Positions 26,510-36,581 of a stretch of 64,000 nt of DNA are shown here, one piece after another. Origin of the DNA: an uncultured Leifsonia sp. (GTDB taxonomy: Bacteria > Actinomycetota > Actinomycetes > Actinomycetales > Microbacteriaceae); the NCBI GenBank assembly GCA_964655795.1, contig CAZZNX010000001.1, forward strand, positions 2,400 to 66,399. Direction: 5' to 3'. The position numbers and the translations under genes are program-made. Below the pieces are notes generated by a model. That model had not been told where the DNA came from. It was given only the letters and a program-made list of their open reading frames with translations, and did not search any database. Every line of letters begins with the position of its first letter. Position 1 is the stretch's first letter.

Positions 26510-26689
26510 ATGGCCGAGGACAACAAGATCAAGAACGCTGCCGAAGAAACCGTTGGCAAGGTGAAGGAGGGGGTCGGAGAGGCAACCGGCAATGAGTCGC
26601 TGGCCAACGAGGGCCGGGTGGATCAAGCCAAGGCCAACGTCAAGCAGGCCGGCGAGAAGATCAAGGATGCCGTGACGGACGACGACTGA
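26510..26689 (+). CDS. CsbD-family stress-response protein (59 aa, not in the ORF track)
   Basis: My own translation gives MAEDNKIKNAAEETVGKVKEGVGEATGNESLANEGRVDQAKANVKQAGEKIKDAVTDDD. GGGAGGAG sits 7 nt upstream and a strong terminator follows. Confidence 0.8.
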   Translation: MAEDNKIKNAAEETVGKVKEGVGEATGNESLANEGRVDQAKANVKQAGEKIKDAVTDDD

Positions 26690-26706
26690 GTCGATTCCGC
26701 TGCATC

Positions 26707-26740
26707 CACAGGCGCCCTGCCTTCCGGCAGGGCGCCTGTG
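26707..26740. terminator. Bidirectional hairpin terminator between csbD and the convergent SDR gene
   Basis: CACAGGCGCCCTGCC-ttcc-GGCAGGGCGCCTGTG, a perfect 15-bp stem with a 4-nt loop. Confidence 0.7.
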
Positions 26741-26783
26741 CCTGTCCTCAATGGGCCCTAACCTTCTCCTGATCTGGTCGCTG

Positions 26784-27680
26784 CTACGGGGTGGGGATTC
26801 CACCATTGGCGTTCAGCGTCTCGCCGAGCACGTAGCTCGACTCCGCCGACGCCAGGAAGACATATGCCGGCGCCATCTCCGCTGGCTGGGCGGCGCGGCC
26901 GAGCGGGGTGTTCTTCCCGAACTTCACGATCTTTTCCGGCGGCTGGCCATCGGTCACCTGCAGCACGGTCCACACCGGCCCCGGCGCCACGGCATTCACG
27001 CGGATTCCGCGTTCGGCCAACTGGCCGGCGAGCGCTTTGGTGAATGCGTTGATCGCGGCCTTGGTTGTCGCGTAGTCGATGAGGATCGGAGAGGGCTTGT
27101 ACGCCTGAACCGAGGTCGAGTTGATGATGGCCGCCCCGGCGGGCAGGTACTTCAGCGCCGCCTTGGATATCCAGAATGTCGCGTAGACGTTGGTGCGCAT
27201 GGTCTCGTCGAAGGCTTGATCCGAGAGTTGTTCCAGCTGCTCGCAGTAGACCTGTTTCCCGGCATTGTTCACCACGATGTCGAGCCCGCCGAGTCCGGCC
27301 GCGGCCGCATCGACGAGCCGCGTGCACTCCTCCGAGATCGAGACATCGACCGGGAGGAGCAGCGCGATTCGCCCGGCGAGCCGCACGAGCTCCGCGATGC
27401 GTTCGGCGTCGCTCTGCTCGCTCGGCAGGTACGCGAGGGCGACATCCGCACCCTCCCGGGCGAACGCAATGGCGACGGCGGCGCCGATGCCCGAGTCGGC
27501 CCCGGTGATGAGGGCGCGCCGGCCTGCAAGCCGTTCGGTGCCCCGATAGCTCGACTCCCCGAGATCCGGCGTCGGGACGAGTTCGCTGTCCAGCCCGGGC
27601 TCGTCCTGATGCTGAACGGGCGGCGAGATGCTCTCGTAGCGGGTTCTGGGATTGTCGAAGGTGTACTGGTCTCTGGGCAT
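26784..27680 (-). CDS. SDR oxidoreductase of the YdaD/YhxC 'general stress protein 39' type
   Basis: N-terminal PPVQHQDEPGLDSELVPTPD, then RALITGADSGIGAAVA, NNAG, DYATTKAAI and IRVNAVAPGPVWT. Confidence 0.88.
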   Translation of the reverse strand: MPRDQYTFDNPRTRYESISPPVQHQDEPGLDSELVPTPDLGESSYRGTERLAGRRALITGADSGIGAAVAIAFAREGADVALAYLPSEQSDAERIAELVRLAGRIALLLPVDVSISEECTRLVDAAAAGLGGLDIVVNNAGKQVYCEQLEQLSDQAFDETMRTNVYATFWISKAALKYLPAGAAIINSTSVQAYKPSPILIDYATTKAAINAFTKALAGQLAERGIRVNAVAPGPVWTVLQVTDGQPPEKIVKFGKNTPLGRAAQPAEMAPAYVFLASAESSYVLGETLNANGGIPTP

Positions 27681-27746
27681 CGTGATCCTCTCTCGGCGCC
27701 GAGCCTAAGAGCGGCCGGGCAGGGCATGCAGGGGCTTGACAACCAC

Positions 27747-28268
27747 TCACTCGCCGTCGGATTCCGCATGCTCGGCACGGTCGGCGGCACGCACACGCAC
27801 CGGTACGACCACCCAGACGGCGATGAGAACAATGGCGATCACCGCGGCGGCCGCGATGCCCCAGAAACGGCCGAGCACGAAGTCGAAGATGAGCATTCCG
27901 ATGCCGACGACGGTGATGGCAACGCCGATGAGCGTCAGCTGGGCGAAGCGGTCGGCCCGGGCGAGCACCTTGTCTTTCGCCCGCTTCCTGAAGAGGTAGC
28001 GGTGCAGGCTCACGGGCGCGAGACTGACAATCGTCGTCATGATCGATGTCACGACGAGCAGAAGGTAGGTGACGAGCTGGAACGTGTCCAGCTCCTCGAA
28101 CCGCGACTGGAACACGGCGGTCAGCAGGAAACCGGTGATGATCTGCGTTCCGGTCTGCACGACCCGGAGCTCCTGGAGCAGCTCGTTCCAGTTTCGGTCG
28201 AGCCGTTCCTTCTCGCTCTCCCCTGATCCGGCGGCATCCGCGGCCCTGGCCTCGGACGACTCGCTCAT
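27747..28268 (-). CDS. DUF6328-family membrane protein
   Basis: ERLDRNWNELLQELRVVQTGTQIITGFLLTAVFQSRF followed by 3-4 TM segments. Confidence 0.7.
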   Translation of the reverse strand: MSESSEARAADAAGSGESEKERLDRNWNELLQELRVVQTGTQIITGFLLTAVFQSRFEELDTFQLVTYLLLVVTSIMTTIVSLAPVSLHRYLFRKRAKDKVLARADRFAQLTLIGVAITVVGIGMLIFDFVLGRFWGIAAAAVIAIVLIAVWVVVPVRVRAADRAEHAESDGE

Positions 28269-28316
28269 CTGACCTCCCCTGGGGCTGAGCGCGCCACATC
28301 GGTGCGCCCGTGCCGA

Positions 28317-28481
28317 CTATGCCGGCGGGTTGTCGGGGTCGACCGTCTCGATTGTGTCCTGCTCGACCTCGTTGTCGGCGTCGAGCTGATTGATCTCGGC
28401 ACCCTCACGTTCCTCCGTGTCACGTCTGCGTGACTCGGACTGCTCGGCCGCCTGCTGCGACCGGGCGCGCTCATCACTCAC
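28317..28481 (-). CDS. Candidate small acidic protein (54 aa, not in the ORF track)
   Basis: My own translation gives VSDERARSQQAAEQSESRRRDTEEREGAEINQLDADNEVEQDTIETVDPDNPPA. The GTG overlaps the upstream stop (GTGA). Codon usage (GAG/GAC/GCC) looks better than the Arg-rich track frame 28265-28477. Confidence 0.4.
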   Translation of the reverse strand: MSDERARSQQAAEQSESRRRDTEEREGAEINQLDADNEVEQDTIETVDPDNPPA

Positions 28482-29023
28482 GATGCTGCTCCCTCACTCG
28501 ATTCGCGGCCCGTTTCGCCCGGGGTACCCGGCACCGTTCCGCTACCCACTCTCTGCAGCAGCGTCTTGAGCTCGCCGTGGGCGCGCCGCGCATCCGCGAG
28601 CAGACCCTCCACCTTCACCCTGGCCATCGGGTGCACATCCCCGGGCAGGGCGTCGAAGAGGATGGTGTACGCCGCAAGCCTGACGCCGTCGAGCATCATC
28701 GCGGATGCCACGGCGGCGGCCTCGCGCAGTTCGGGTGCGCATTTGCCGAGGAACGCCGATTCCGACCGCACCAGCGCGCTCGATGCCGGTGACGGATACT
28801 GCGCCGGCGCAAGGTCCAGCATCTCGAACAAGCCGTTGAGTTCCGCAATCTGGTGGCGGGTTTGCGCCGTGCGGAACTCGAAGAAGTCCTCGACGTCATC
28901 GGAGCGGGCGGAGTCGATCAGCAGGGGCAGCATTCCAAGCCAGTCATGCTCCATCGTGAGTGTGGCGCCCAGCCGGTATCCGTACACGTCGCGCGGGCTC
29001 TCAAAACGCTCGAACATCATCAT
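28478..29023 (-). CDS. Ferritin-like DUF892 (YciE/YciF-type) stress protein
   Basis: 181 aa. FEFRTAQTRHQIAELNGLFEMLDLAP matches the H..eT..qi..L..vFe.lg pattern of DUF892. Confidence 0.7.
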   Translation of the reverse strand: MMMFERFESPRDVYGYRLGATLTMEHDWLGMLPLLIDSARSDDVEDFFEFRTAQTRHQIAELNGLFEMLDLAPAQYPSPASSALVRSESAFLGKCAPELREAAAVASAMMLDGVRLAAYTILFDALPGDVHPMARVKVEGLLADARRAHGELKTLLQRVGSGTVPGTPGETGRESSEGAAS

Positions 29024-29427
29024 CCACCCCGATTCTCTCGCTCATCGCCCGAGCCACGGCGGCTCGGCCATTGCCCTATCGCCGCGGAGTACGGGCGGCC
29101 CCTCCGATGGGACGCATGATTCGAGGGGGCCGCCGCACGGGAGCCGACACCGAAATGCCCACCGGAAACCCGGCCACGCTTCCTCGCCTCGGAAATGGCG
29201 GCACCGAGGCGTGACAGCACGCTACCGGGGGGCCCGGGCCGGAGCGAGGGGGTTGACAGCCGAAATTCTCCGTGTGCGCAACGCCGCCAGCGCGATCGAC
29301 GTGCCGGTGCCGCGCGCCGGTGCCGTGCGGCTACCACAAGCGCGCGCGGGGGTTCAAGCCCGTGCCGCTCCCGCCTCCTCAGAATTAGCGTGGAACTGTC
29401 TGGCCACGGGAGGGCAGTGTCTGGAGA

Positions 29428-29886
29428 ATGATGAAGAGCCGGGTGTCGACGACCATCGACGTGGATGCCAGCGTCGAGAACACCGTCGAGTTCTGGCGGC
29501 GTGCCGGCGCGGCCGATGGCGCGAGCCTTCCGCCCACCGTCGAGATGGTGTCGACTCAGTGGACCGTGTTGGTCAACGGCGTCCCGAGCACTCGCGAGGT
29601 TTCTGGCGCTGCCGCCGAGCTCTCCCGCGTGATCCCGCTCTCGAGTATGGATGGCGACGCAGCTCGAGGCGAGGTGACATTCGATGCGTTGGGAGAGCAG
29701 CGCACGAGAGTCGCGATCTCGGTGGAGTGGCAACGCGAAGACTCGGCCGAGAGCTACGTTCCGCTGGTTCTGCTCGACGGCATTCAGGTGAATTCCGACC
29801 TCAGGGACTTCAAACGCCAGGTGGAGCGGGGGGTGCGCAGTTCGCGAGAGTGGAAGGCGACCGTCGACAAGTTTGAGGCCTTCTAG
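29428..29886 (+). CDS. SRPBCC (cyclase/dehydrase-like) family protein
   Basis: 152 aa starting MMKSRVSTTIDVDASVENTVEFW. The assignment rests on pattern only and is moderate. Confidence 0.6.
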   Translation: MMKSRVSTTIDVDASVENTVEFWRRAGAADGASLPPTVEMVSTQWTVLVNGVPSTREVSGAAAELSRVIPLSSMDGDAARGEVTFDALGEQRTRVAISVEWQREDSAESYVPLVLLDGIQVNSDLRDFKRQVERGVRSSREWKATVDKFEAF

Positions 29887-30206
29887 GCGTGCTGTCGCAC
29901 GTAGTCCTCTGCGGCGTCCTCATCGATCACGAGCATGCCGCTTTCGCCCATCGCCGACAGTTCCATGGCATGAATCCACACCCGGTTGATGTCGCCTGGC
30001 GTGGTGCTCCGAAAGCGGAACTGCAGCGGAATTGACGGAGAGAGCCAGATCGCGATTCGCCCGGAGCCCTTCGCGCTCGGAACCGTCCAGCCGAGATAGA
30101 ACGACTCCTTGCGGCGCAGCTTGGCCCCGACCACGATCTTCACGTGGGAGAGCACCCGGTCGTCGAAGTCGAAAGGCGGCGAGACTGCGTAAACGAATTG
30201 CCCCAT
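29883..30206 (-). CDS. Uncharacterised small protein, paralogue 1 of 3 (107 aa)
   Basis: MGQFVYAVSPPFDFDDRVLSHVKIVVGAKLRRKESFYLGW...GRIAIWLSPSIPLQFRF... aligns without gaps to the two neighbouring ORFs. Confidence 0.75.
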   Translation of the reverse strand: MGQFVYAVSPPFDFDDRVLSHVKIVVGAKLRRKESFYLGWTVPSAKGSGRIAIWLSPSIPLQFRFRSTTPGDINRVWIHAMELSAMGESGMLVIDEDAAEDYVRQHA

Positions 30207-30272
30207 GATCCCAGCATGCGCCCGCGGTGTGCAGAACACCAGCGCCTGCGGAGATGTGAGGGGCCGCGCATC

Positions 30273-30307
30273 TTGCGAAGTCCATCCGGCTATCGCATGC
30301 TGTGTGC
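30273..30307 (+). promoter_or_regulatory. Predicted promoter of paralogue 2 giving a leaderless mRNA
   Basis: TTGCGA (30273-30278), 17 nt, CATGCT (30296-30301), 6 nt, ATG 30308. Confidence 0.45.
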
Positions 30308-30643
30308 ATGGGCGAACTGATCTATGGCGCAGAGACGTCATACCCGATGGAGGACCGCACGCTTTCCCATGTGAAGGCTGCGGTCGGCGGCAAGCTCAGG
30401 CGCCAGGAATCCTTCTACCTGAGCTGGATCGTGCCGGCCTCGAGCGGGTCAGGGCGGGTGAGCCTGTGGCTGTCTCCGGCGATTCCACTGCAGTTCCACT
30501 TCCTCGGCAACACCTCGCCGACGCTGAACCCCGTCTGGATTCGCGCGCTCGAGCTCACCTCGGTGAGCGACCGCGGCATGATCGTGCTGCCGGAGGCGGA
30601 GGCGGAGGCCTATGTGCGCGAGCACCCGAGCTCGCTCAGCTGA
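30308..30643 (+). CDS. Uncharacterised small protein, paralogue 2 of 3 (111 aa)
   Basis: MGELIYGAETSYPMEDRTLSHVKAAVGGKLRRQESFYLSW...GRVSLWLSPAIPLQFHF... I chose ATG 30308 to match the MG start of the paralogues. Confidence 0.75.
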   Translation: MGELIYGAETSYPMEDRTLSHVKAAVGGKLRRQESFYLSWIVPASSGSGRVSLWLSPAIPLQFHFLGNTSPTLNPVWIRALELTSVSDRGMIVLPEAEAEAYVREHPSSLS

Positions 30644-30681
30644 CTCCCGCAGCGCTCAGATGTCGCCCGCGCCGGAGCGGC

Positions 30682-30990
30682 TCAGGCGACCGCCACGACC
30701 GGCTCATCTTCGATGCGCAGGTCGCCGGAGGCATTCGCGCTCACCATCAGACTCGTCAGCCACTCGCGGTTGAGCTCATGGCGATCGGCGGTGTCGAACT
30801 CGAACTGGAGTGGAATCGAGGGATGAATCCAGAGCGAGATCCGGCTCGCTGGTTCGCCCGGCACCTGCAGGCACGACAGTGTGAAGGATTCCTGCCGTCG
30901 CAGCTTGGTCACGACCACCGATTTGACGTGGGCCAAGGTGCGATCGTCGACGGGGATCCGACGCTCTGCTCCGTAGACAATGGCTCCCAT
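30682..30990 (-). CDS. Uncharacterised small protein, paralogue 3 of 3 (102 aa)
   Basis: MGAIVYGAERRIPVDDRTLAHVKSVVVTKLRRQESFTLSC...SRISLWIHPSIPLQFEF... Confidence 0.75.
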   Translation of the reverse strand: MGAIVYGAERRIPVDDRTLAHVKSVVVTKLRRQESFTLSCLQVPGEPASRISLWIHPSIPLQFEFDTADRHELNREWLTSLMVSANASGDLRIEDEPVVAVA

Positions 30991-31128
30991 TGTGCACTTC
31001 CCATTCAGCTCAACACCATGCCGCCTGGCATTGGAGAAGTCGAACAGCGGCCTCGCTCATTAGCTGATTGTCCCGCGGGGTCTGGGCTGGTCAACCTGAG
31101 CCAAGTGTACGCTCGTTCAGTTCTCTGA

Positions 31129-31150
31129 GCACTGCTCATTTGAGCAGTGC
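31129..31150 (-). terminator. Short hairpin downstream of ku
   Basis: GCACTGCTCA-tt-TGAGCAGTGC lies about 30 nt after the ku stop and has no U-tract. Confidence 0.4.
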
Positions 31151-31180
31151 GGCGGCTCTCTCTCGGACGGAACGGCCTGA

Positions 31181-32038
31181 TCACGCGCCCTTCTGTGCCT
31201 TCTTGCGGCCGCTGCGTGCCGGCACCTTCGCTCCGGTTTCCTTGGCCCGCCCCGCGGCCGATTTGTTCTTCTCGATGCTGCGCCGCAGCGCGTCCATCAG
31301 GTCGATGACGTCGCCGCCCGATTCGGGCACTTCGCCGAAGGTGACGGCGGTGTTGACGACCTTGCCGGTCTTCAGTTTCTCGTCGATGAGTTTGCGCAGC
31401 TGCGCCTGGTACTCGTCGTGGTACTGCGACGGATCGAAGTCGGCGGCGAAGGAGCTGACGAGTGCTGAAGACATCTCGAGCTCCTTGCTCGCGATGTTCA
31501 CCCGTGTCTCGAGGGAGGCGAACTCCGGGGCGCGGATCTCGTCGTCCCACAGCAGAGACTGCAGCATGAGCGCCTTGCCGCGCACGCGCAGCGCGCCGAG
31601 ACGGGTCTTCTGGCGCAGCGCGAAGTGCACGATGGCCGTCAGATCCGTGGACTCCAGGGTGCGCCGCAGCAGCACATAGGCCTTGGGCGACGTGGAGTCC
31701 GGTTCCAGGTAGTAGCTGCGGTCGAGCATGATCGGGTCCAGCTGTGCGCTCGGCACGAACTCGACGATCTCGATCTCGCGGCTGCGCTCCTCCGGCAGCC
31801 CGCGCAGCTCCTTGTCGCTGAGCACCACGGTGTGCTCGTCATCCGCGTACGCCTTGTCGATGTGCTCGTACTCGACGATGCGCCCGCACACCTCGCACTT
31901 GCGTTGGTAGCGGATCCGGCCGCCGTCCTTGTCGTGCACCTGATGGAGTGGGATGTCGTGGTCTTCGGTCGCGCTGTACAGCTTGACCGGCACGTTCACC
32001 AATCCGAATGCAACAGAGCCTTTCCAGATCGCCCTCAT
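31181..32038 (-). CDS. ku: Ku protein (bacterial NHEJ DNA-end-binding protein)
   Basis: MRAIWKGSVAFGLVNVPVKLYSATEDHDIPLHQVH... with a Lys/Arg-rich C-terminal tail. It is divergent from ligD. Confidence 0.95.
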   Translation of the reverse strand: MRAIWKGSVAFGLVNVPVKLYSATEDHDIPLHQVHDKDGGRIRYQRKCEVCGRIVEYEHIDKAYADDEHTVVLSDKELRGLPEERSREIEIVEFVPSAQLDPIMLDRSYYLEPDSTSPKAYVLLRRTLESTDLTAIVHFALRQKTRLGALRVRGKALMLQSLLWDDEIRAPEFASLETRVNIASKELEMSSALVSSFAADFDPSQYHDEYQAQLRKLIDEKLKTGKVVNTAVTFGEVPESGGDVIDLMDALRRSIEKNKSAAGRAKETGAKVPARSGRKKAQKGA

Positions 32039-32056
32039 GGCTCCAGTACACACCCC

Positions 32057-32091
32057 TTGCGGGCGAGCGTCTAGAGACGCATGCTCGGGAC
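32057..32091 (+). promoter_or_regulatory. Predicted ligD promoter giving a leaderless mRNA
   Basis: TTGCGG (32057-32062), 17 nt, CATGCT (32080-32085), 6 nt, ATG 32092. No SD is present. The geometry and hexamers match those upstream of paralogue 2. Confidence 0.45.
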
Positions 32092-34521
32092 ATGGCATCG
32101 AAGCAGCAGCCCGTTGTCTCCGTCGGTGGGCGCACGATCAAGCTGACGAACCTCGACAAGGTTCTCTACCCGGAGACGGGGACGACCAAAGCGGACGTGA
32201 TCGACTACTACGTGACCGTGGCCGACGTCATGCTCCCCCACGTGAAGGATCGGCCGGCGACGCGCAAGCGCTGGGTGCACGGAGTGGGCACCGCAGAGGA
32301 GCCCGGCGCCGTGTTCTTCCAGAAGGACCTCGGCGATTCCGCACCGGAATGGGTCGCCCGCGGTGTCATCGAGCACTCCGACCACTCCAACACCTACCCG
32401 CTCGTGAACGACGTGGCCACCCTCACCTGGCTGGGGCAGATCGCCGCACTCGAGATCCACGTGCCGCAGTGGCGCTTCGACGCCCAGGGGCGCAAGCAGA
32501 ACCCCGACCGCTTCGTCCTGGACCTCGACCCCGGCGACGGTGTTCCACTCGCCGACTGCGCGGAGGTCGCCGTGTTGGCCCGCGGAATCCTCCGCGACAT
32601 GGGGCTCGACCCGATCCCGGTCACGAGCGGGAGCAAGGGAATCCACCTCTACGCGGCGCTCGACGGGAGCCAGTCCTCCGACGACGTCACCGAGGTGGCA
32701 CACGAGCTGGCCAGGGCGCTGGAGGCCGAGCACCCGGACGACATCGTGAGCTCGATGTCGCGTGCCCTCCGGCCGGGCAAGGTGTTCATCGACTGGAGCC
32801 AGAACCGCGCGGCCAAGACGACGGTCGCCCCCTACTCTCTGCGGGGCAAGCTGCGCCCGATGGTCGCCGCACCCCGCACCTGGCGCGAGTTGATGTCGAA
32901 AGACCTCCGCCAACTCGACTACCGGGAGACCATCCGGCGCGTCAAGGATCGGGGCGACCCGATGGCGGCGTTGGCCGGCGCTCCCGCCAGCGGCGATCGT
33001 CTTGCGCACTACCGCGAGCGCCGCGACGCCTCCAAGACCCCGGAACCGATGCCGGATTCGTACCGGGGCGGGCACGGTCGGCAATTCGTCATCCAGGAAC
33101 ACCGCGCGCGGGCCCACCACTTCGACTTCCGGCTCGAACACGACGGCGTGCTTGTCTCCTGGGCGCTGCCGAGGGGCATGCCCAGCGATGCGCAACACAA
33201 TCGGCTCGCGGTGCAGACCGAGGACCACCCGATCGAATACGCCGCATTCGAGGGGGTGATCCCCCGCGGGGAGTACGGCGCGGGAACGGTGGAGATCTGG
33301 GATGCCGGCGACTACGAGCTCGAGAAGTGGCGGGAAGACGAGGTGATCGTCTCCCTGCACGGACGAGCGGACGGCGGGCTGGGAACGCCAACCCGGGTGG
33401 CACTCATCCGCACCACCCCGGCCGTCGATGGCAAGGGAGCCTCCTGGCTCCTGCACCGCATGAAGGCACAGACGCCCGACCCCGAATGGAGCAGGCAGAG
33501 CGCCGAGGACTCCGGCGCGGTCGCGAACGAGATGAGGCAACGCGGCGAGCTGGCGCCGATGCTCGCGACGCTGGCGGAGCGCGAGGGACTCGACGACGAA
33601 GACGAGTGGGCCATCGAAATGAAGTGGGACGGCATCCGTGCCATCGCCGTCGTCGACGCCAATGCCGGCACCGCTGATCTGTCGAGTCGGAACGGACTCG
33701 ATCTCAGCCGAAGCTATCCCGAGCTGATCGCGGCGTTGCTGCGGGCCGCGGCACACACGGGGCACGCCGTTCTCGACGGTGAGATCGTCGCGCCCGACAG
33801 CGCGGGGCGTCCGGACTTCGGGCGGCTCCAGACCCGCATGGGGCTCACCGCGGAGCGCGAGGTCGAACGCGCCGCGCAGAGCGTGCCCGTGCAGTTCATC
33901 GTTTTCGACGTGCTCGAGCTCGACGGAGTCTCGCTCATCGACCGCAGCTACGACGAGCGCCGCCGCCGCCTCGAATACGCGCTCGCACCGACGCCGAAGG
34001 TTGTGCTGCCCGCCGCGATCACGGTGGGGCTGGATGCCGCACTGGACATCAGCGAGGATCTCGGCCTGGAGGGCGTCGTGGCGAAACGGCGCGATGGCAG
34101 CTACAAGTCGGGGCGGCGCTCAACCGACTGGCTCAAGTTCAAACACCTCCGCACGCAGGAGGTCGTCATCGGCGGCTGGCGGCCCGGCAACGGCGCCAGG
34201 CACGACAGCATCGGCTCCCTCCTGCTCGGAGTGCCGACGGATGACGGCCTCCGCTACGTCGGCCGCGTCGGCACCGGCTTCAGCGCGAAGGCACTGGACG
34301 CCGCCCGCGCGCGCATGGCCGGCCGCGCCAGCACGAGCAGCCCGTTCATCGACGTGCCCACGTCGGTCGCCAAGGACGCCCACTGGGTCAGCCCCGATCT
34401 GGTCGCGGAAGTCGAGTTCTTCGAATGGACCTCGACCGGTCAGCTGCGGCAGCCGTCCTGGCGCGGCTGGCGACCGGACAAGGCAGTGACCGACGTTGCG
34501 ATGGAGGAGGGGAAACGATGA
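32092..34521 (+). CDS. ligD: Multidomain ATP-dependent DNA ligase LigD (Pol/primase - phosphoesterase - ligase order)
   Basis: N-terminal Pol domain (IKLTNLDKVLYPETGTTKADVIDYY, RPATRKRW), PE domain (FVIQEHRARAHHFDFRLE...WALPRG) and ligase KxDG motif (EMKWDGIRA). ATG 32092. Confidence 0.95.
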   Translation: MASKQQPVVSVGGRTIKLTNLDKVLYPETGTTKADVIDYYVTVADVMLPHVKDRPATRKRWVHGVGTAEEPGAVFFQKDLGDSAPEWVARGVIEHSDHSNTYPLVNDVATLTWLGQIAALEIHVPQWRFDAQGRKQNPDRFVLDLDPGDGVPLADCAEVAVLARGILRDMGLDPIPVTSGSKGIHLYAALDGSQSSDDVTEVAHELARALEAEHPDDIVSSMSRALRPGKVFIDWSQNRAAKTTVAPYSLRGKLRPMVAAPRTWRELMSKDLRQLDYRETIRRVKDRGDPMAALAGAPASGDRLAHYRERRDASKTPEPMPDSYRGGHGRQFVIQEHRARAHHFDFRLEHDGVLVSWALPRGMPSDAQHNRLAVQTEDHPIEYAAFEGVIPRGEYGAGTVEIWDAGDYELEKWREDEVIVSLHGRADGGLGTPTRVALIRTTPAVDGKGASWLLHRMKAQTPDPEWSRQSAEDSGAVANEMRQRGELAPMLATLAEREGLDDEDEWAIEMKWDGIRAIAVVDANAGTADLSSRNGLDLSRSYPELIAALLRAAAHTGHAVLDGEIVAPDSAGRPDFGRLQTRMGLTAEREVERAAQSVPVQFIVFDVLELDGVSLIDRSYDERRRRLEYALAPTPKVVLPAAITVGLDAALDISEDLGLEGVVAKRRDGSYKSGRRSTDWLKFKHLRTQEVVIGGWRPGNGARHDSIGSLLLGVPTDDGLRYVGRVGTGFSAKALDAARARMAGRASTSSPFIDVPTSVAKDAHWVSPDLVAEVEFFEWTSTGQLRQPSWRGWRPDKAVTDVAMEEGKR

Positions 34522-35258
34522 CCGGAGCCGCGGACCGCGAGCCGACGGTCGACAAGAAGACCGACCTGAATATCGAGCGCGAGGCCCGCGCTGAGCCGCG
34601 CTGGCCTGCGGTGCTGGCGCTGCTCATCGCGCTCTCGCTGTACACCCTCCTGCCGACCGATGTCACGCCGACTCCCGTTCGGATCATCGTCGTCGTGGCC
34701 GGCATCGCCATGCTGATTCCGGTGCTCATCCTGAACCCCGTCCGCCTCAGCAAACAGAACTCATGGTCGCGGAGGCTCTCCGTCGGGCAGGCGCTCCTGC
34801 TCGTCGTTGCCAACTACGCCGCACTCATCCAGGTGATCTTTCTGCTCGTGACGACAACCGCGGAGGACGCGCCATCGATCTTGGTGACCGCGGCACAGGT
34901 CTGGATCACGAATGTGATCGCGTTCACGCTCGTGTACTGGGAGATGGACCGTGGCGGCCCCGTTGCCCGTCGCGTCGACCGACGCGACGAACTACCCATG
35001 GCCGACTACCGCTTCCCGCAGGACGAGGACCGGGACGCGGTCGCGGAGGTGGCGAAGCGGTCGTCGGAGGCGATCGACTGGACCCCATCGTTCATCGACT
35101 ACCTCTACGAGGCAGGGGTGAGCGCGATGGCCTTCAGCCCGGGTTCCGGAGTGCCCCTGTCGCCACGGATGAAGTTCTTGATGCTCGCACAATCGGCCGC
35201 ATCCTTCGTGATGCTCGCCCTCGTGATCGCGCACGCCGTCGGCCAGATCGGGGCCTGA
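34518..35258 (+). CDS. DUF1345-family membrane protein
   Basis: 246 aa with 4-5 TM segments and WITNVIAFTLVYWEMDRGGP. Its ATG overlaps the ligD stop (ATGA). Confidence 0.7.
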   Translation: MTGAADREPTVDKKTDLNIEREARAEPRWPAVLALLIALSLYTLLPTDVTPTPVRIIVVVAGIAMLIPVLILNPVRLSKQNSWSRRLSVGQALLLVVANYAALIQVIFLLVTTTAEDAPSILVTAAQVWITNVIAFTLVYWEMDRGGPVARRVDRRDELPMADYRFPQDEDRDAVAEVAKRSSEAIDWTPSFIDYLYEAGVSAMAFSPGSGVPLSPRMKFLMLAQSAASFVMLALVIAHAVGQIGA

Positions 35259-35345
35259 CTTTCATCCGGACGCTCCGAAGTCAAGCCATTTCATCGCGCG
35301 GGGCGTCGACCTAGCGTTGGATACCGAGCGGAAGGAGCACTGCCG

Positions 35346-35600
35346 ATGGACCAATCAAGCGAGATGCCCGACGACGACTCCGTCGGAACGCAGGACGAAC
35401 CGATCATGGATGTCGACGAGGTCTCTGACCGGGACAAGCTCGATGGCATCATCGCCCAGACGGTCTCCGATCTCGGAGCCCAGCATCCGCGCACCGACAT
35501 CGAGGCCGTGGTGGTCGAACGCAGCAGAGAATCGGGGCTGCACATCTCACGCACCGACATCTCCACAGCGGTCGGATCCGCCATCGAGGGCGGGCGCTGA
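35346..35600 (+). CDS. Small acidic hypothetical protein (84 aa)
   Basis: GGAAGGAG SD and coding-like codon usage. It ends 6 nt before the topoisomerase IB start. Confidence 0.55.
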   Translation: MDQSSEMPDDDSVGTQDEPIMDVDEVSDRDKLDGIIAQTVSDLGAQHPRTDIEAVVVERSRESGLHISRTDISTAVGSAIEGGR

Positions 35601-35606
35601 CACCCG

Positions 35607-36581
35607 ATGGTGCGGCTGCGAACGGCCGACCCGTCGGCGCCCGGTTGGACCCTGCGCCGAAACGGCACCGGCATCAGGGTGCTCGACGAACGTGGCCGCG
35701 TGATCACCGACGAGGAGCGACGTGAGCGGGTGACCGCGCTGAGCATCCCACCGGCGTGGAGCATGGTCTGGATCGCGCCGCAGCCGAACGCTCACATCCA
35801 GGCGGTCGGAACCGATTCACAGGGCCGCAGGCAGTACATCTACCACGAGCAGTGGAGCCGGGCCCGCGCGCGTCAGAAGTACGACAGGGCACTGGAGCTG
35901 GCGGTGAGCCTGCCGAGCGCCAGAGCGGTGGTCACCCGCGACCTCCGCGGGGCGGCCGGCACCCGTGAGCGCGCGCTGGCCGTGGCGTTCCGGCTCCTGG
36001 ACAGCGCGCTGCTCCGCGTCGGGAGTGAGCGTTACGAACGCGCGCACGGCAGCAGGGGTCTCACGACGCTGCTCGGCTCCGATGCCCACGTGCATGGCGA
36101 CACCGTGCTGCTGGAGTTCGTCGGCAAGGGCGCCGTCGACTGGTCGTCGGAGACGAGCGACCCCGACCTCGCCGCGGCCGTGCGCTCGCTGAAGCGCCGC
36201 GGCCCAGACGCCCGCCTTCTCGCGTGGAAGGACGACGCGGAGTGGCGGCCGCTTCACGCCACCGAGGTGAACGAGTACGTGCGTGCCCGCACCCACGGCG
36301 ACTTCACCGCCAAGGACTTCCGCACCCTGCACGGCACCGTCCTCGCGGCTCAGGCACTCGCGGCTGAGGGGCCACAGGACGACGCCCGTGCCAGAAAGCA
36401 GGCGATCGTCCGCGCAACGGCGGTCACGGCACTCGCCCTCGGCAACACCCCGGCGATCGCACGCGCGAACTACATCGACCCCCGCGTGTTCGATCGATAC
36501 CGGGACGGGCGCGTTCTCGCGACCGGGTCGATCGCGGCGGAGCGGGCCGTCCGCGCGCTCATCCTCGGCGACCCGGGCTGA
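35607..36581 (+). CDS. Type IB DNA topoisomerase (poxvirus-like bacterial TopIB)
   Basis: 324 aa with IPPAWSMVWIAPQPNAHIQAVGTDSQGRRQYIYH, FVGKG, FTAKDFRTLHGT and a catalytic-Tyr context ARANYIDPRV. Confidence 0.85.
   Translation: MVRLRTADPSAPGWTLRRNGTGIRVLDERGRVITDEERRERVTALSIPPAWSMVWIAPQPNAHIQAVGTDSQGRRQYIYHEQWSRARARQKYDRALELAVSLPSARAVVTRDLRGAAGTRERALAVAFRLLDSALLRVGSERYERAHGSRGLTTLLGSDAHVHGDTVLLEFVGKGAVDWSSETSDPDLAAAVRSLKRRGPDARLLAWKDDAEWRPLHATEVNEYVRARTHGDFTAKDFRTLHGTVLAAQALAAEGPQDDARARKQAIVRATAVTALALGNTPAIARANYIDPRVFDRYRDGRVLATGSIAAERAVRALILGDPG

What the first reader, a model, noticed from the sequence alone, without database searches (positions are those of the whole stretch)
30213..32094. 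ligD and the small paralogues share an identical predicted leaderless-promoter geometry
ligD is preceded by TTGCGG (32057-62), 17 nt, CATGCT (32080-85), 6 nt, then ATG 32092. Paralogue 2 is preceded by TTGCGA (30273-78), 17 nt, CATGCT (30296-301), 6 nt, then ATG 30308. The full 8-mer CGCATGCT sits exactly 6 nt from the start codon in three genes: ligD 32078-85, P2 30294-301, and P1 on the minus strand at 30213-220 with ATG 30206. None of the three has an SD. The P1 and P2 copies form a mirror pair in their 101-bp divergent region. The P1/P2 similarity could be a duplication relic, but ligD is not a paralogue. With a per-site probability of roughly 2e-5 at this GC content (my estimate), a same-offset match is unlikely by chance. 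A -10-like hexamer 6 nt from ATG is the classic layout of actinobacterial leaderless mRNAs. The GCATGC core is also a palindrome and could be an operator. A weaker observation: ku has TAGACG-N17-TGTACT-N6-ATG on the other strand of the same 53-bp spacer.
Basis: seen in the sequence. Interest (0 to 1): 0.7.

Follow-up and report, generated by a model that had tools for sequence, protein, structure and literature searches.

The report
Shared leaderless promoters of ligD neighbours
The DNA-repair gene ligD and two neighbouring small genes of unknown function most likely each start transcription at their own start codon from near-identical promoters, a well-known actinobacterial layout; the exact shared 8-mer is only loosely conserved in relatives.

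Summary
CGCATGCT lies exactly 6 nt before the ATG of ligD (32092), P2 (30308) and P1 (30206, minus strand). ligD and P2 also share TTGCGR 17 nt upstream.

The 8-mer is not over-represented in the window (7 seen, 4.6 expected), but its placement is far from random.

P1 and P2 are two of three DUF7882 paralogues. The third, P3, lacks the motif and appears to have a leader.

Comparative data support a −10 element of leaderless mRNAs.
- An ANNNT hexamer sits exactly 6 nt before the start in 51 of 81 actinobacterial ligD genes and 55 of 116 DUF7882 genes.
- Control offsets give 0–8.

In close relatives the hexamer drifts (CAAGCT, GATGCT, CATCCT, CAGTAT). Only A(−11) and T(−7) stay fixed, so the GCATGC palindrome is not an operator.

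The three-way 8-mer identity is partly specific to this lineage. It is still selected and is not a duplication relic, because P1/P2 third-codon identity is only 47%.

One residue is unexplained. These genes, and ligC, keep C or G rather than T at −12, unlike the local TAGSCT consensus. That could mean deliberately weak promoters or shared control.

No start sites were mapped. Verdict: a real, ordinary new example of a known kind.

The parts
32078..32085 (+). ligD 8-mer CGCATGCT. The predicted -10 hexamer CATGCT is 32080-32085, with A at -11 and T at -7 relative to the A of ATG 32092.
   Evidence: The hexamer position is conserved in 51 of 81 ligD orthologues. Variants are AGCATGCT in L081 and GGATGCT in L082.
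32057..32062 (+). ligD predicted -35 TTGCGG, 17 bp upstream of the -10. CTTGCG is shared at the same offset with P2.
   Evidence: Identical in L081.
32092..34521 (+). ligD coding sequence (809 aa; primase-polymerase, phosphoesterase and ligase domains). Predicted leaderless start at 32092.
   Evidence: Pfam hits PF21686, PF13298, PF01068, PF04679.
30294..30301 (+). P2 8-mer CGCATGCT. The predicted -10 hexamer is 30296-30301.
   Evidence: The footprint TCGCAWGCTG is invariant between this window, L081 and the 57-60% identical orthologues L091/L092.
30273..30278 (+). P2 predicted -35 TTGCGA.
   Evidence: The footprint TCTTGCGAA is conserved in L091/L092. Variants are TTGCAA in L081/L082 and TTGCTT in L085.
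30308..30643 (+). P2, DUF7882 protein (111 aa).
   Evidence: PF25355, E = 8e-31. The MGELIYG N-terminus is conserved.
30213..30220 (-). P1 8-mer CGCATGCT. The hexamer runs 30218->30213, and the ATG is at 30206. There is no convincing -35.
   Evidence: Identical in L081. The orthologue in L091 has GGCGCAGTAT. In L082-84 P1 has lost its own promoter.
29883..30206 (-). P1, DUF7882 protein (107 aa).
   Evidence: PF25355, E = 6.5e-31.
30682..30990 (-). P3, the third DUF7882 paralogue (102 aa). It does not share the layout.
   Evidence: PF25355, E = 1.5e-32. Its upstream region ends ...aatgggaagtgcaca-ATG, with a GGGAAG Shine-Dalgarno-like box.
31067..31094 (-). Promoter-like site TTGACC-16-GACAAT, about 70 nt upstream of P3. 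This predicts a leadered transcript.
   Evidence: TTGACA/GGACAAT is conserved in L081.
31181..32038 (-). ku coding sequence (285 aa), divergent from ligD. Start is MRAIWKG.
   Evidence: PF02735. The M. smegmatis orthologue has its mapped start site on the A of the equivalent ATG.
32045..32050 (-). ku TGTACT, 6 nt before the ATG. It belongs to the conserved GGTG-TNYACT-G motif and has no A at -11.
   Evidence: Found in 28 of 73 ku genes against 0 of 774 background genes.
32068..32073 (-). ku TAGACG, 17 nt upstream of TGTACT. It lies inside the ligD promoter spacer, so the ku and ligD promoters overlap.
   Evidence: TAGNCN lies 17-18 nt upstream in 13 of the 28 TNYACT ku genes.

Best explanation
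CATGCT is the -10 element and TTGCGR the -35 element of sigma-70-family promoters. The sigma factor is most likely the housekeeping sigma A or a close group-2 relative.

These promoters start transcription on the A of the ATG. ligD, P1 and P2 are therefore made as leaderless mRNAs, translated without a Shine-Dalgarno sequence.

The hexamer belongs to the weaker VANNNT subclass, with C instead of T at -12.

The three-way identity of the 8-mer arises from two things:
- The genes are kept on the same off-consensus promoter variant by selection.
- Some lineage-specific coincidence adds to this, because in relatives only A(-11) and T(-7) are invariant.

Shown: the geometry, its conservation and the substitution pattern. 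Inferred: the start site, the sigma factor and the promoter strength.
For: Geometry and context:
- The geometry is exact in all three genes, and there is no Shine-Dalgarno sequence.
- The 53-bp divergent ku-ligD spacer leaves room for only a very short leader.

Conservation of position:
- ANNNT lies exactly 6 nt before the start in 51 of 81 ligD genes, plus 6 at 7 nt.
- It does so in 55 of 116 DUF7882 genes, plus 8 at 7 nt.
- Control offsets give 0-8.

Local background:
- In 378 crude gene calls from Microbacteriaceae loci, A peaks at -11, T at -7 and -12, and C at -8.
- 54 genes have A(-11)/T(-7), against 9-14 at control offsets.

Substitutions in relatives keep A2 and T6 only: CAAGCT, GATGCT, CATCCT, CAGTAT.

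Footprinting:
- The -35 and -10 blocks are invariant between this window and L091/L092 while the rest of the spacer has diverged.
- P1/P2 third-codon identity is 47%.

Literature:
- In M. smegmatis, 79% of promoters have ANNNT at -6 to -13, and 63% of those are TANNNT.
- VANNNT promoters are weaker.
- 24% of transcripts are leaderless, and the DNA-metabolism category is enriched among them (PMC6448022).
- M. smegmatis ku has leader length 0 at the same N-terminus.
Against: - No start-site data exist for this organism or any Microbacteriaceae locus used here.
- CATGCT departs from the local leaderless consensus TAGCCT/TAGGCT at positions 1 and 3.
- Hexamers with non-T at position 1 and T at position 3 make up 20 of 57 in ligD and 28 of 63 in DUF7882. 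In the background they are 6 of 98, which is about chance level. Something beyond a generic -10 may therefore be constrained.
- P1 has no recognisable -35 and no TG extension.
- Gene calls and start codons in the background set are crude.
- Orthologous promoters are not independent samples.
Confidence: 0.74

Rival explanations
1. The shared off-consensus promoter marks common control of end-joining ligases and DUF7882. The control would come from a dedicated sigma factor or an activator, for example one acting in stationary phase or desiccation. Its features would be C/G at -12, T at -10 and often CGG after the hexamer.
For: - 'SATNNT' hexamers are enriched in ligD (20 of 57) and DUF7882 (28 of 63) against about chance level in 774 background genes.
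- ligC has [CG]ANGAT or CAGAAT 6 nt before the ATG in 10 of 10 genomes, never T at position 1.
- ligC of L002 reads CATGATCGGGAC-ATG, against CATGCTCGGGAC-ATG for ligD in this window.
- P2 and ligD share both CTTGCG and CGCATGCT at identical offsets.
- In Curtobacterium, the end-joining ligase and Ku are induced about 8-12 fold by desiccation (PMC12029717 supplement).
- End-joining genes are under sigma G in B. subtilis and RpoE2 in S. meliloti.
- The locus sits among CsbD, DUF892 and DUF6328 genes.
Against: - Stand-alone PrimPol genes next to ligC have canonical TAGSTT.
- Microbacterium ligD has TACGCT.
- ku uses a different motif.
- The variant is therefore gene-specific, not pathway-wide.
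- VANNNT is 37% of ANNNT promoters in M. smegmatis, so it needs no special factor.
- No sigma factor gene was found among the roughly 60 window proteins scanned.
- The counts are inflated by shared descent.
Confidence: 0.16
2. The motif is (also) an operator for a dimeric repressor that overlaps the promoter. The site would be either the GCATGC palindrome or the longer dyad CTTGCG-N16-CGCAWG, which spans the -35 and -10.
For: - GCATGC is a perfect palindrome in all three promoters.
- In P2 orthologues the -35 block CTTGCGA is the reverse complement of the -10 block TCGCAAG. The match is 7 of 7 in L091-93 and 6 of 7 in this window and L081.
- ligD shows 5 of 7.
- This would explain why 'CGCA' is conserved upstream of the A at -11.
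Against: - The GCATGC symmetry is broken in the closest relatives (CAAGCT, GATGCT, CATCCT, CAGTAT) while the promoter position is kept.
- P1 lacks the CTTGCG half-site.
- The dyad is absent in L085 and L087.
- There is no compensatory change between half-sites.
- No regulator gene is consistently adjacent.
- GCATGC frequency is about what base composition predicts: 21 seen, about 22 estimated.
Confidence: 0.07
3. The match is a coincidence combined with a relic of the P1/P2 duplication, and has no functional meaning.
For: - The 8-mer count in the window is not elevated.
- In L081 the three 8-mers differ from one another.
- Four other gene pairs in the window share same-offset matches of 8 nt or more.
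Against: - Three of seven copies lie at the same offset from start codons. My estimate of the expected number is about 0.004.
- The composite pattern is expected 0.00 times.
- P1/P2 synonymous sites are saturated, yet a 9-mer is retained.
- The footprints persist in orthologues of 57-60% identity.
Confidence: 0.03

Closest known systems
Leaderless mRNA promoters of Actinobacteria (M. tuberculosis and M. smegmatis start-site maps; ANNNT/TANNNT -10 about 7 nt upstream of a start site that coincides with the start codon)
   Same: - A at -11 and T at -7 relative to the start codon.
- No Shine-Dalgarno sequence.
- A weak or variable -35.
- DNA-metabolism genes are enriched among leaderless transcripts (PMC6448022).
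- The ku orthologue is experimentally leaderless.
   Different: - Position -12 is C, placing it in the VANNNT subclass, and position -10 is T.
- The local Microbacteriaceae consensus is TAGSCT.
- No start sites have been mapped here.
Extended -10 (TGn) promoters
   Same: Many DUF7882 orthologues carry TG[CA]-GATGAT-N6-ATG with no conserved -35. This is the classical trade-off between a TG extension and a -35.
   Different: The three window promoters have CG, not TG, at the corresponding positions. P2 and ligD instead have a 17-bp-spaced -35.
Sigma-factor control of bacterial end-joining genes (B. subtilis sigma G/SpoVT for ykoVU; S. meliloti RpoE2/EcfG for ku3-ku4 and ligD4)
   Same: End-joining genes share a recognisable promoter type within a genome and are stress-induced (PMC3656841, PMC6379672).
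   Different: - The motif here looks like a housekeeping-type -35/-10, not an ECF or sigma G consensus.
- ku has a different motif.
- No sigma factor has been identified.
DUF7882 (PF25355), described as putative cytoplasmic transducers of CryoRhodopsins
   Same: P1, P2 and P3 match the family at E = 1e-31 to 1e-33. They are small soluble proteins.
   Different: - Here, and in many other loci, they sit beside ku, ligD or ligC rather than a rhodopsin.
- No rhodopsin domain was found among the roughly 60 window genes scanned.

Membership tests
Actinobacterial leaderless-mRNA promoter | ANNNT hexamer with A at -11 and T at -7 relative to the first base of the start codon | tested here: met
   CATGCT lies at -12..-7 in ligD, P1 and P2.
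Actinobacterial leaderless-mRNA promoter | No Shine-Dalgarno sequence and no room for a functional leader | tested here: met
   No GGAG, GAGG or AGGA in -17..-5. The ku-ligD spacer is 53 bp and the P1-P2 spacer is 101 bp.
Actinobacterial leaderless-mRNA promoter | Hexamer position conserved relative to the start codon in orthologues | tested here: met
   ligD 51 of 81 and DUF7882 55 of 116 at exactly 6 nt, against 0-8 at control offsets. Close relatives are shown.
Actinobacterial leaderless-mRNA promoter | Transcription start mapped on the start codon | not testable with these tools
   The only indirect evidence is that M. smegmatis ku (MSMEG_5580) has leader length 0.
Actinobacterial leaderless-mRNA promoter | T at -12 (full TANNNT) | tested here: not met
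   The base is C at -12. This is the VANNNT subclass, 37% of ANNNT promoters in M. smegmatis, and it does not exclude membership.
Palindromic repressor operator (GCATGC) | Dyad symmetry conserved in orthologous sites | tested here: not met
   CAAGCT, GATGCT, CATCCT and CAGTAT occur at the same position in relatives.
Palindromic repressor operator (GCATGC) | Regulator gene consistently linked to the sites | tested here: not met
   Neighbours differ between loci. L082-84 have GAF-ANTAR inserts, and the window has only a TetR gene 4 kb away.
Alternative-sigma end-joining regulon (sigma G / EcfG type) | Distinct consensus shared by regulon members and rare elsewhere | tested here: inconclusive
   SATNNT is enriched in ligD, ligC and DUF7882. 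However, PrimPol, ku and Microbacterium ligD differ.
Alternative-sigma end-joining regulon (sigma G / EcfG type) | Dependence on a specific sigma factor, and co-induction | not testable with these tools
   The only support is literature on a related genus, where desiccation induces Ku and the end-joining ligase.
Extended -10 promoter | TG at -15/-14 | tested here: not met
   The window has tCG, gCG and aCG before the hexamer. Many DUF7882 orthologues do have TGC or TGA.

The most novel reading that the evidence does not exclude
A conserved off-consensus leaderless -10 marks a co-regulated end-joining or desiccation module in Actinobacteria.

- Its features would be C/G at -12, usually T at -10, and often CGG downstream.
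- The module would include ligD, ligC and the DUF7882 genes.
- Control would come from an unidentified sigma factor or activator.
- DUF7882 would then be an end-joining accessory factor rather than, or as well as, a rhodopsin transducer.
Probability: 0.18. Interest if true: 0.55.

Novelty: new member of a known kind. Interest (0 to 1): 0.3.

Why it matters
Outside B. subtilis and alpha-proteobacteria, little is known about how bacterial end-joining genes are transcribed (PMC6379672).

This locus gives a concrete, testable promoter model for ligD in Microbacteriaceae.
- ligD is predicted to be leaderless, with a weak VANNNT -10.
- Its promoter overlaps a divergent ku promoter of a different type.

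The locus also ties a recently named protein family, DUF7882, to the ku/ligD neighbourhood. DUF7882 shares the ligD promoter layout.

If the shared variant reflects common control, it would offer a way into the stress regulation of end-joining in non-sporulating actinobacteria. If it does not, this is simply a clean textbook example of leaderless gene organisation.

Tried and rejected
- **Rfam scan of 29000-33000:** only a chance lncRNA hit at E = 0.24. No known RNA element.
- **Generic promoter scan:** it finds only the P3 site, because CATGCT fails its 4-of-6 rule.
- **SigF/SigB-type G[TGA]TT-N13-18-GGGTA search in the window:** two matches (11795 and 28500, plus strand). From their flanking sequence I judged neither to be a promoter; I did not check this against the gene calls.
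- **ku-type GT[GCT][TC]ACTG elsewhere in the window:** eight matches, of which only the ku copy lies directly before a start codon.
- **Duplication-relic explanation:** rejected on saturation of synonymous sites.
- **Palindrome over-representation:** rejected. GCATGC is seen 21 times against about 22 expected from composition.
- **Upstream ATG inside CATGCT as an alternative start:** out of frame (11 nt) in all three genes.
- **MAFFT three-way alignment with ligD:** it misaligned to a coincidental GCATGCTCG inside the P1/P2 coding sequence, so I used same-offset comparison instead.
- **DUF7882 structure:** confident model (pLDDT 91.7), but no PDB fold match at E < 1.
- **Rv0938 plus 'leaderless' literature search:** no papers.
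- **M. smegmatis ligD (MSMEG_5570):** not present in the held part of the supplement.

Full report
**What is in the sequence.** The finding is accurate to the base.
- ligD (32092-34521, plus strand; polymerase, phosphoesterase and ligase domains) is preceded by TTGCGG (32057-62), 17 nt, CATGCT (32080-85), 6 nt, then ATG.
- P2 (30308-30643, plus strand) is preceded by TTGCGA (30273-78), 17 nt, CATGCT (30296-301), 6 nt, then ATG.
- P1 (29883-30206, minus strand) has CGCATGCT at 30220->30213, 6 nt before its ATG.
- P3 lacks the motif. It has a TTGACC-16-GACAAT site about 70 nt upstream and a GGGAAG box before its ATG, so it appears to have a leader.
- ku (31181-32038, minus strand) diverges from ligD across 53 bp.
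- The organism is a relative of Microterricola in the Microbacteriaceae.

**Is it more than chance?**
- The 8-mer itself is not over-represented: 7 copies against 4.56 +/- 2.14 in dinucleotide shuffles.
- GCATGC occurs 21 times. My composition-based estimate is about 22.
- What is non-random is position. The four other copies have no start codon 3-11 nt downstream and appear to lie within coding sequence, which I did not verify against gene calls. All three copies with a start codon downstream sit at the same offset from it.
- The composite TTGCGR-N17-CATGCT-N6-ATG occurs twice against 0.00 expected.
- Among 2145 pairs of crudely called window genes, only 7 share a same-offset exact match of 8 nt or more in -40..-1. 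Three of those are this trio.
- P1 and P2 are 63.5% identical in coding DNA but only 47% at third codon positions, and the rest of their upstream regions is unrelated. The retained 9-mer CGCATGCTG is therefore selected and is not a neutral relic.

**What it is.** Comparative data identify the hexamer as a -10 element placed for leaderless transcription.
- I collected 80 ligD loci from genomes, 80 DUF7882 loci from metagenomes and 8 loci around close relatives of P2.
- With curated starts, an ANNNT hexamer lies exactly 6 nt before the start codon in 51 of 81 ligD genes (6 more at 7 nt).
- The same holds for 55 of 116 DUF7882 genes (8 more at 7 nt). Control offsets give 0-8.
- In 378 crude gene calls from Microbacteriaceae loci, genes without a Shine-Dalgarno-like sequence show A enriched at -11, T at -7 and -12, C at -8 and G at -6.
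- This is the geometry reported from start-site maps in mycobacteria (PMC6448022):
  - 79% of promoters have ANNNT at -6 to -13.
  - 63% of those are TANNNT.
  - VANNNT promoters are weaker.
  - 24% of transcripts are leaderless.
  - The DNA-metabolism category is enriched among leaderless transcripts.
- In that study's Table S5, M. smegmatis ku (MSMEG_5580) was re-annotated with leader length 0 at the ATG of MRSIWKG. That is the same N-terminus as ku here.

**Promoter rather than operator.** In close relatives the motif drifts in a way that keeps only the two bases a -10 element needs.

| Gene | This window | Relatives |
|---|---|---|
| P2 | CGCATGCT (also L082-84) | CGCAAGCT (L081, L091-93); CATCCT (M. 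viridarii, L085); CTCATGCT (L087) |
| ligD | CGCATGCT | AGCATGCT (L081); GGATGCT (L082) |
| P1 | CGCATGCT (also L081) | CGCAGTAT (L091/92) |

- The GCATGC palindrome is thus repeatedly broken while the position is kept.
- In the 97%-identical relative L081 the three 8-mers are all different, so the perfect three-way identity is partly specific to this genome.
- An alignment of the P1-P2 spacer with orthologues of 57-60% protein identity shows clean footprints in an otherwise diverged spacer. These are TCTTGCGAA (-35) and TCGCAWGCTG (-10) for P2, and GGCGCA...T for P1.
- In L082-84 an FMN reductase gene has been inserted. P1 now sits 17 nt behind it and has lost the motif, as expected for a promoter.

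**What remains unexplained.**
- The local leaderless consensus is TAGCCT/TAGGCT. Among 774 background genes, 98 have A(-11)/T(-7) (about 25 by chance), 63 of them with T at position 1. Only 6 combine a non-T at position 1 with T at position 3, which is about chance level.
- In ligD that class is 20 of 57, and in DUF7882 it is 28 of 63.
- As an independent test I fetched ligC loci. In 10 of 10 genomes ligC has GG-[CG]ANGAT (once CAGAAT) 6 nt before its ATG, and never T at position 1. ligC of L002 reads CATGATCGGGAC-ATG, against CATGCTCGGGAC-ATG for ligD in this window.
- The pattern is not pathway-wide, however:
  - The stand-alone PrimPol genes beside ligC have canonical TAGCTT, TAGGTT or TACGGT.
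  - Microbacterium ligD has TACGCT.
  - ku uses a different motif.
- I read this as gene-specific retention of a weak -10 variant. Shared control remains a minority possibility.
- Context favours stress expression:
  - The locus lies among CsbD, an SDR-family gene, DUF6328, DUF892 and Top1B genes.
  - In Curtobacterium, desiccation raises Ku and the end-joining ligase by log2 3.0-3.6 (PMC12029717 supplement).
  - Elsewhere, end-joining genes are under sigma G or RpoE2.
- No sigma factor gene was found among the roughly 60 window proteins scanned.

**ku.**
- TGTACT lacks the A at -11. It belongs to GGTG-TNYACT-G, found 6 nt before the ATG in 28 of 73 ku genes (Microterricola, Leifsonia, Leucobacter, Microbacterium) and in 0 of 774 background genes.
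- 13 of those 28 also have TAGNCN 17-18 nt upstream.
- In this window each of the ku and ligD -35 boxes lies inside the other promoter's spacer. The two promoters therefore overlap by 17 bp and probably cannot be occupied at the same time; this is an inference.

**Verdict.**
- The leaderless-promoter reading is supported, at about 0.74 confidence.
- The operator reading is not supported.
- The regulon reading is untested, with a modest hint in its favour.
- This is a new instance of a well-known actinobacterial arrangement, with some unexplained sequence specificity.
- No transcription start sites have been mapped for this organism, so the start site, the sigma factor and the promoter strength remain inferences.
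- Interest is low to moderate.

Noticed in passing
It lacks the CGCATGCT layout. It has TTGACC-16-GACAAT about 70 nt upstream and a GGGAAG box before its ATG, so it appears to have a leader. This is conserved in L081 and L082.
   Followed up: partly
window 29883-34521; loci L002, L004, L011, L019-21, L081-83, L095, L098, L100, L101, L107-109, L112, L113, L119: DUF7882 genes are recurrent neighbours of ku, ligD and ligC. 10 of 80 metagenome DUF7882 loci hold Ku or LigD (5 of the 25 loci of 5 kb or more), and 6 of 80 ligD loci hold DUF7882. The family was published only as putative CryoRhodopsin transducers (PMC12227055). No rhodopsin domain was found among the roughly 60 window genes scanned.
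   Followed up: partly
window 32039-32073 (-); ku upstream regions in L001, L017-L030, L037, L041, L045, L057-L074, L081-82, L108-109, L119: ku has a strongly conserved non-canonical motif, GGTG-T[GCT][TC]ACT-G, 6 nt before its ATG. It occurs in 28 of 73 ku genes against 0 of 774 background genes. It has no A at -11. 13 of the 28 have TAGNCN 17-18 nt upstream. What recognises it is unknown.
   Followed up: partly
L002 13224, L004 ~13310, L011 13469, L169-L175 position 3001: ligC genes in 10 of 10 genomes (9 Microbacteriaceae or related actinomycete loci plus one Arthrobacter) carry GG-[CG]A[ATG]GAT (once CAGAAT), usually followed by CG, 6 nt before the ATG. None has T at hexamer position 1. 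9 of 10 contain GATC. The convergent stand-alone PrimPol genes have canonical TAGCTT, TAGGTT or TACGGT.
   Followed up: yes
window 32038-32092: The divergent ku and ligD promoters overlap by 17 bp. Each predicted -35 lies inside the other's spacer, which suggests mutually exclusive occupancy by RNA polymerase.
   Followed up: no
window 30272-30300; L091-L093 P2 upstream regions: The P2 -35 block CTTGCGA is the reverse complement of the -10 block TCGCAAG, with a 14-nt gap. The match is perfect in L091-93 and 6 of 7 in this window and L081. ligD shows 5 of 7. It may be coincidence or a dyad operator.
   Followed up: partly
L082-L084 (relatives with P2 92% identical): The locus has been remodelled. 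An FMN reductase gene is inserted between P1 and P2, and P1 now sits 17 nt behind it without its own promoter. Two GAF-ANTAR genes are inserted between P2 and P3. The ku-ligD spacer has grown to 112 bp.
   Followed up: partly
window 26510-36581: The ku/ligD/DUF7882 cluster sits in a block typical of general-stress genes. These are CsbD (26510-26689), an SDR-family gene (26784-27680), DUF6328 (27747-28268), DUF892 (28478-29023), a weak DUF1345-like membrane protein overlapping the ligD stop (34518-35258) and a type IB topoisomerase (35607-36581).
   Followed up: partly
window 29428-29886 (+): A 152-aa ORF with no Pfam match converges on P1. It is conserved beside the DUF7882 genes in L081, L082 and M. 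viridarii (L085).
   Followed up: no
window 30308-30643 (P2 protein): The AlphaFold model of P2 is confident (pLDDT 91.7, pTM 0.83; mixed beta-sheet with three helices). It has no Foldseek match in the PDB at E < 1.
   Followed up: yes
window 32060-32087: An imperfect inverted repeat, CGGGCGAGCGTCT / AGACGCATGCTCG with core GCGTCT-ag-AGACGC, lies between the ligD -35 and -10. The right arm is not conserved in L081.
   Followed up: partly
window 23374, 40228, 13989, 26322, 15137, 48382: Other likely leaderless genes in the window. Three are TetR regulators with CAGACT (start 23374), TATCAT (13989) and GAAGAT (26322). The others are an OmdA/YdeI gene (CAGACT, 40228), a CysZ-like gene (TAGGCT, 15137) and an unassigned gene (TACCAT, 48382). 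C at hexamer position 1 is therefore not unique to the trio.
   Followed up: partly
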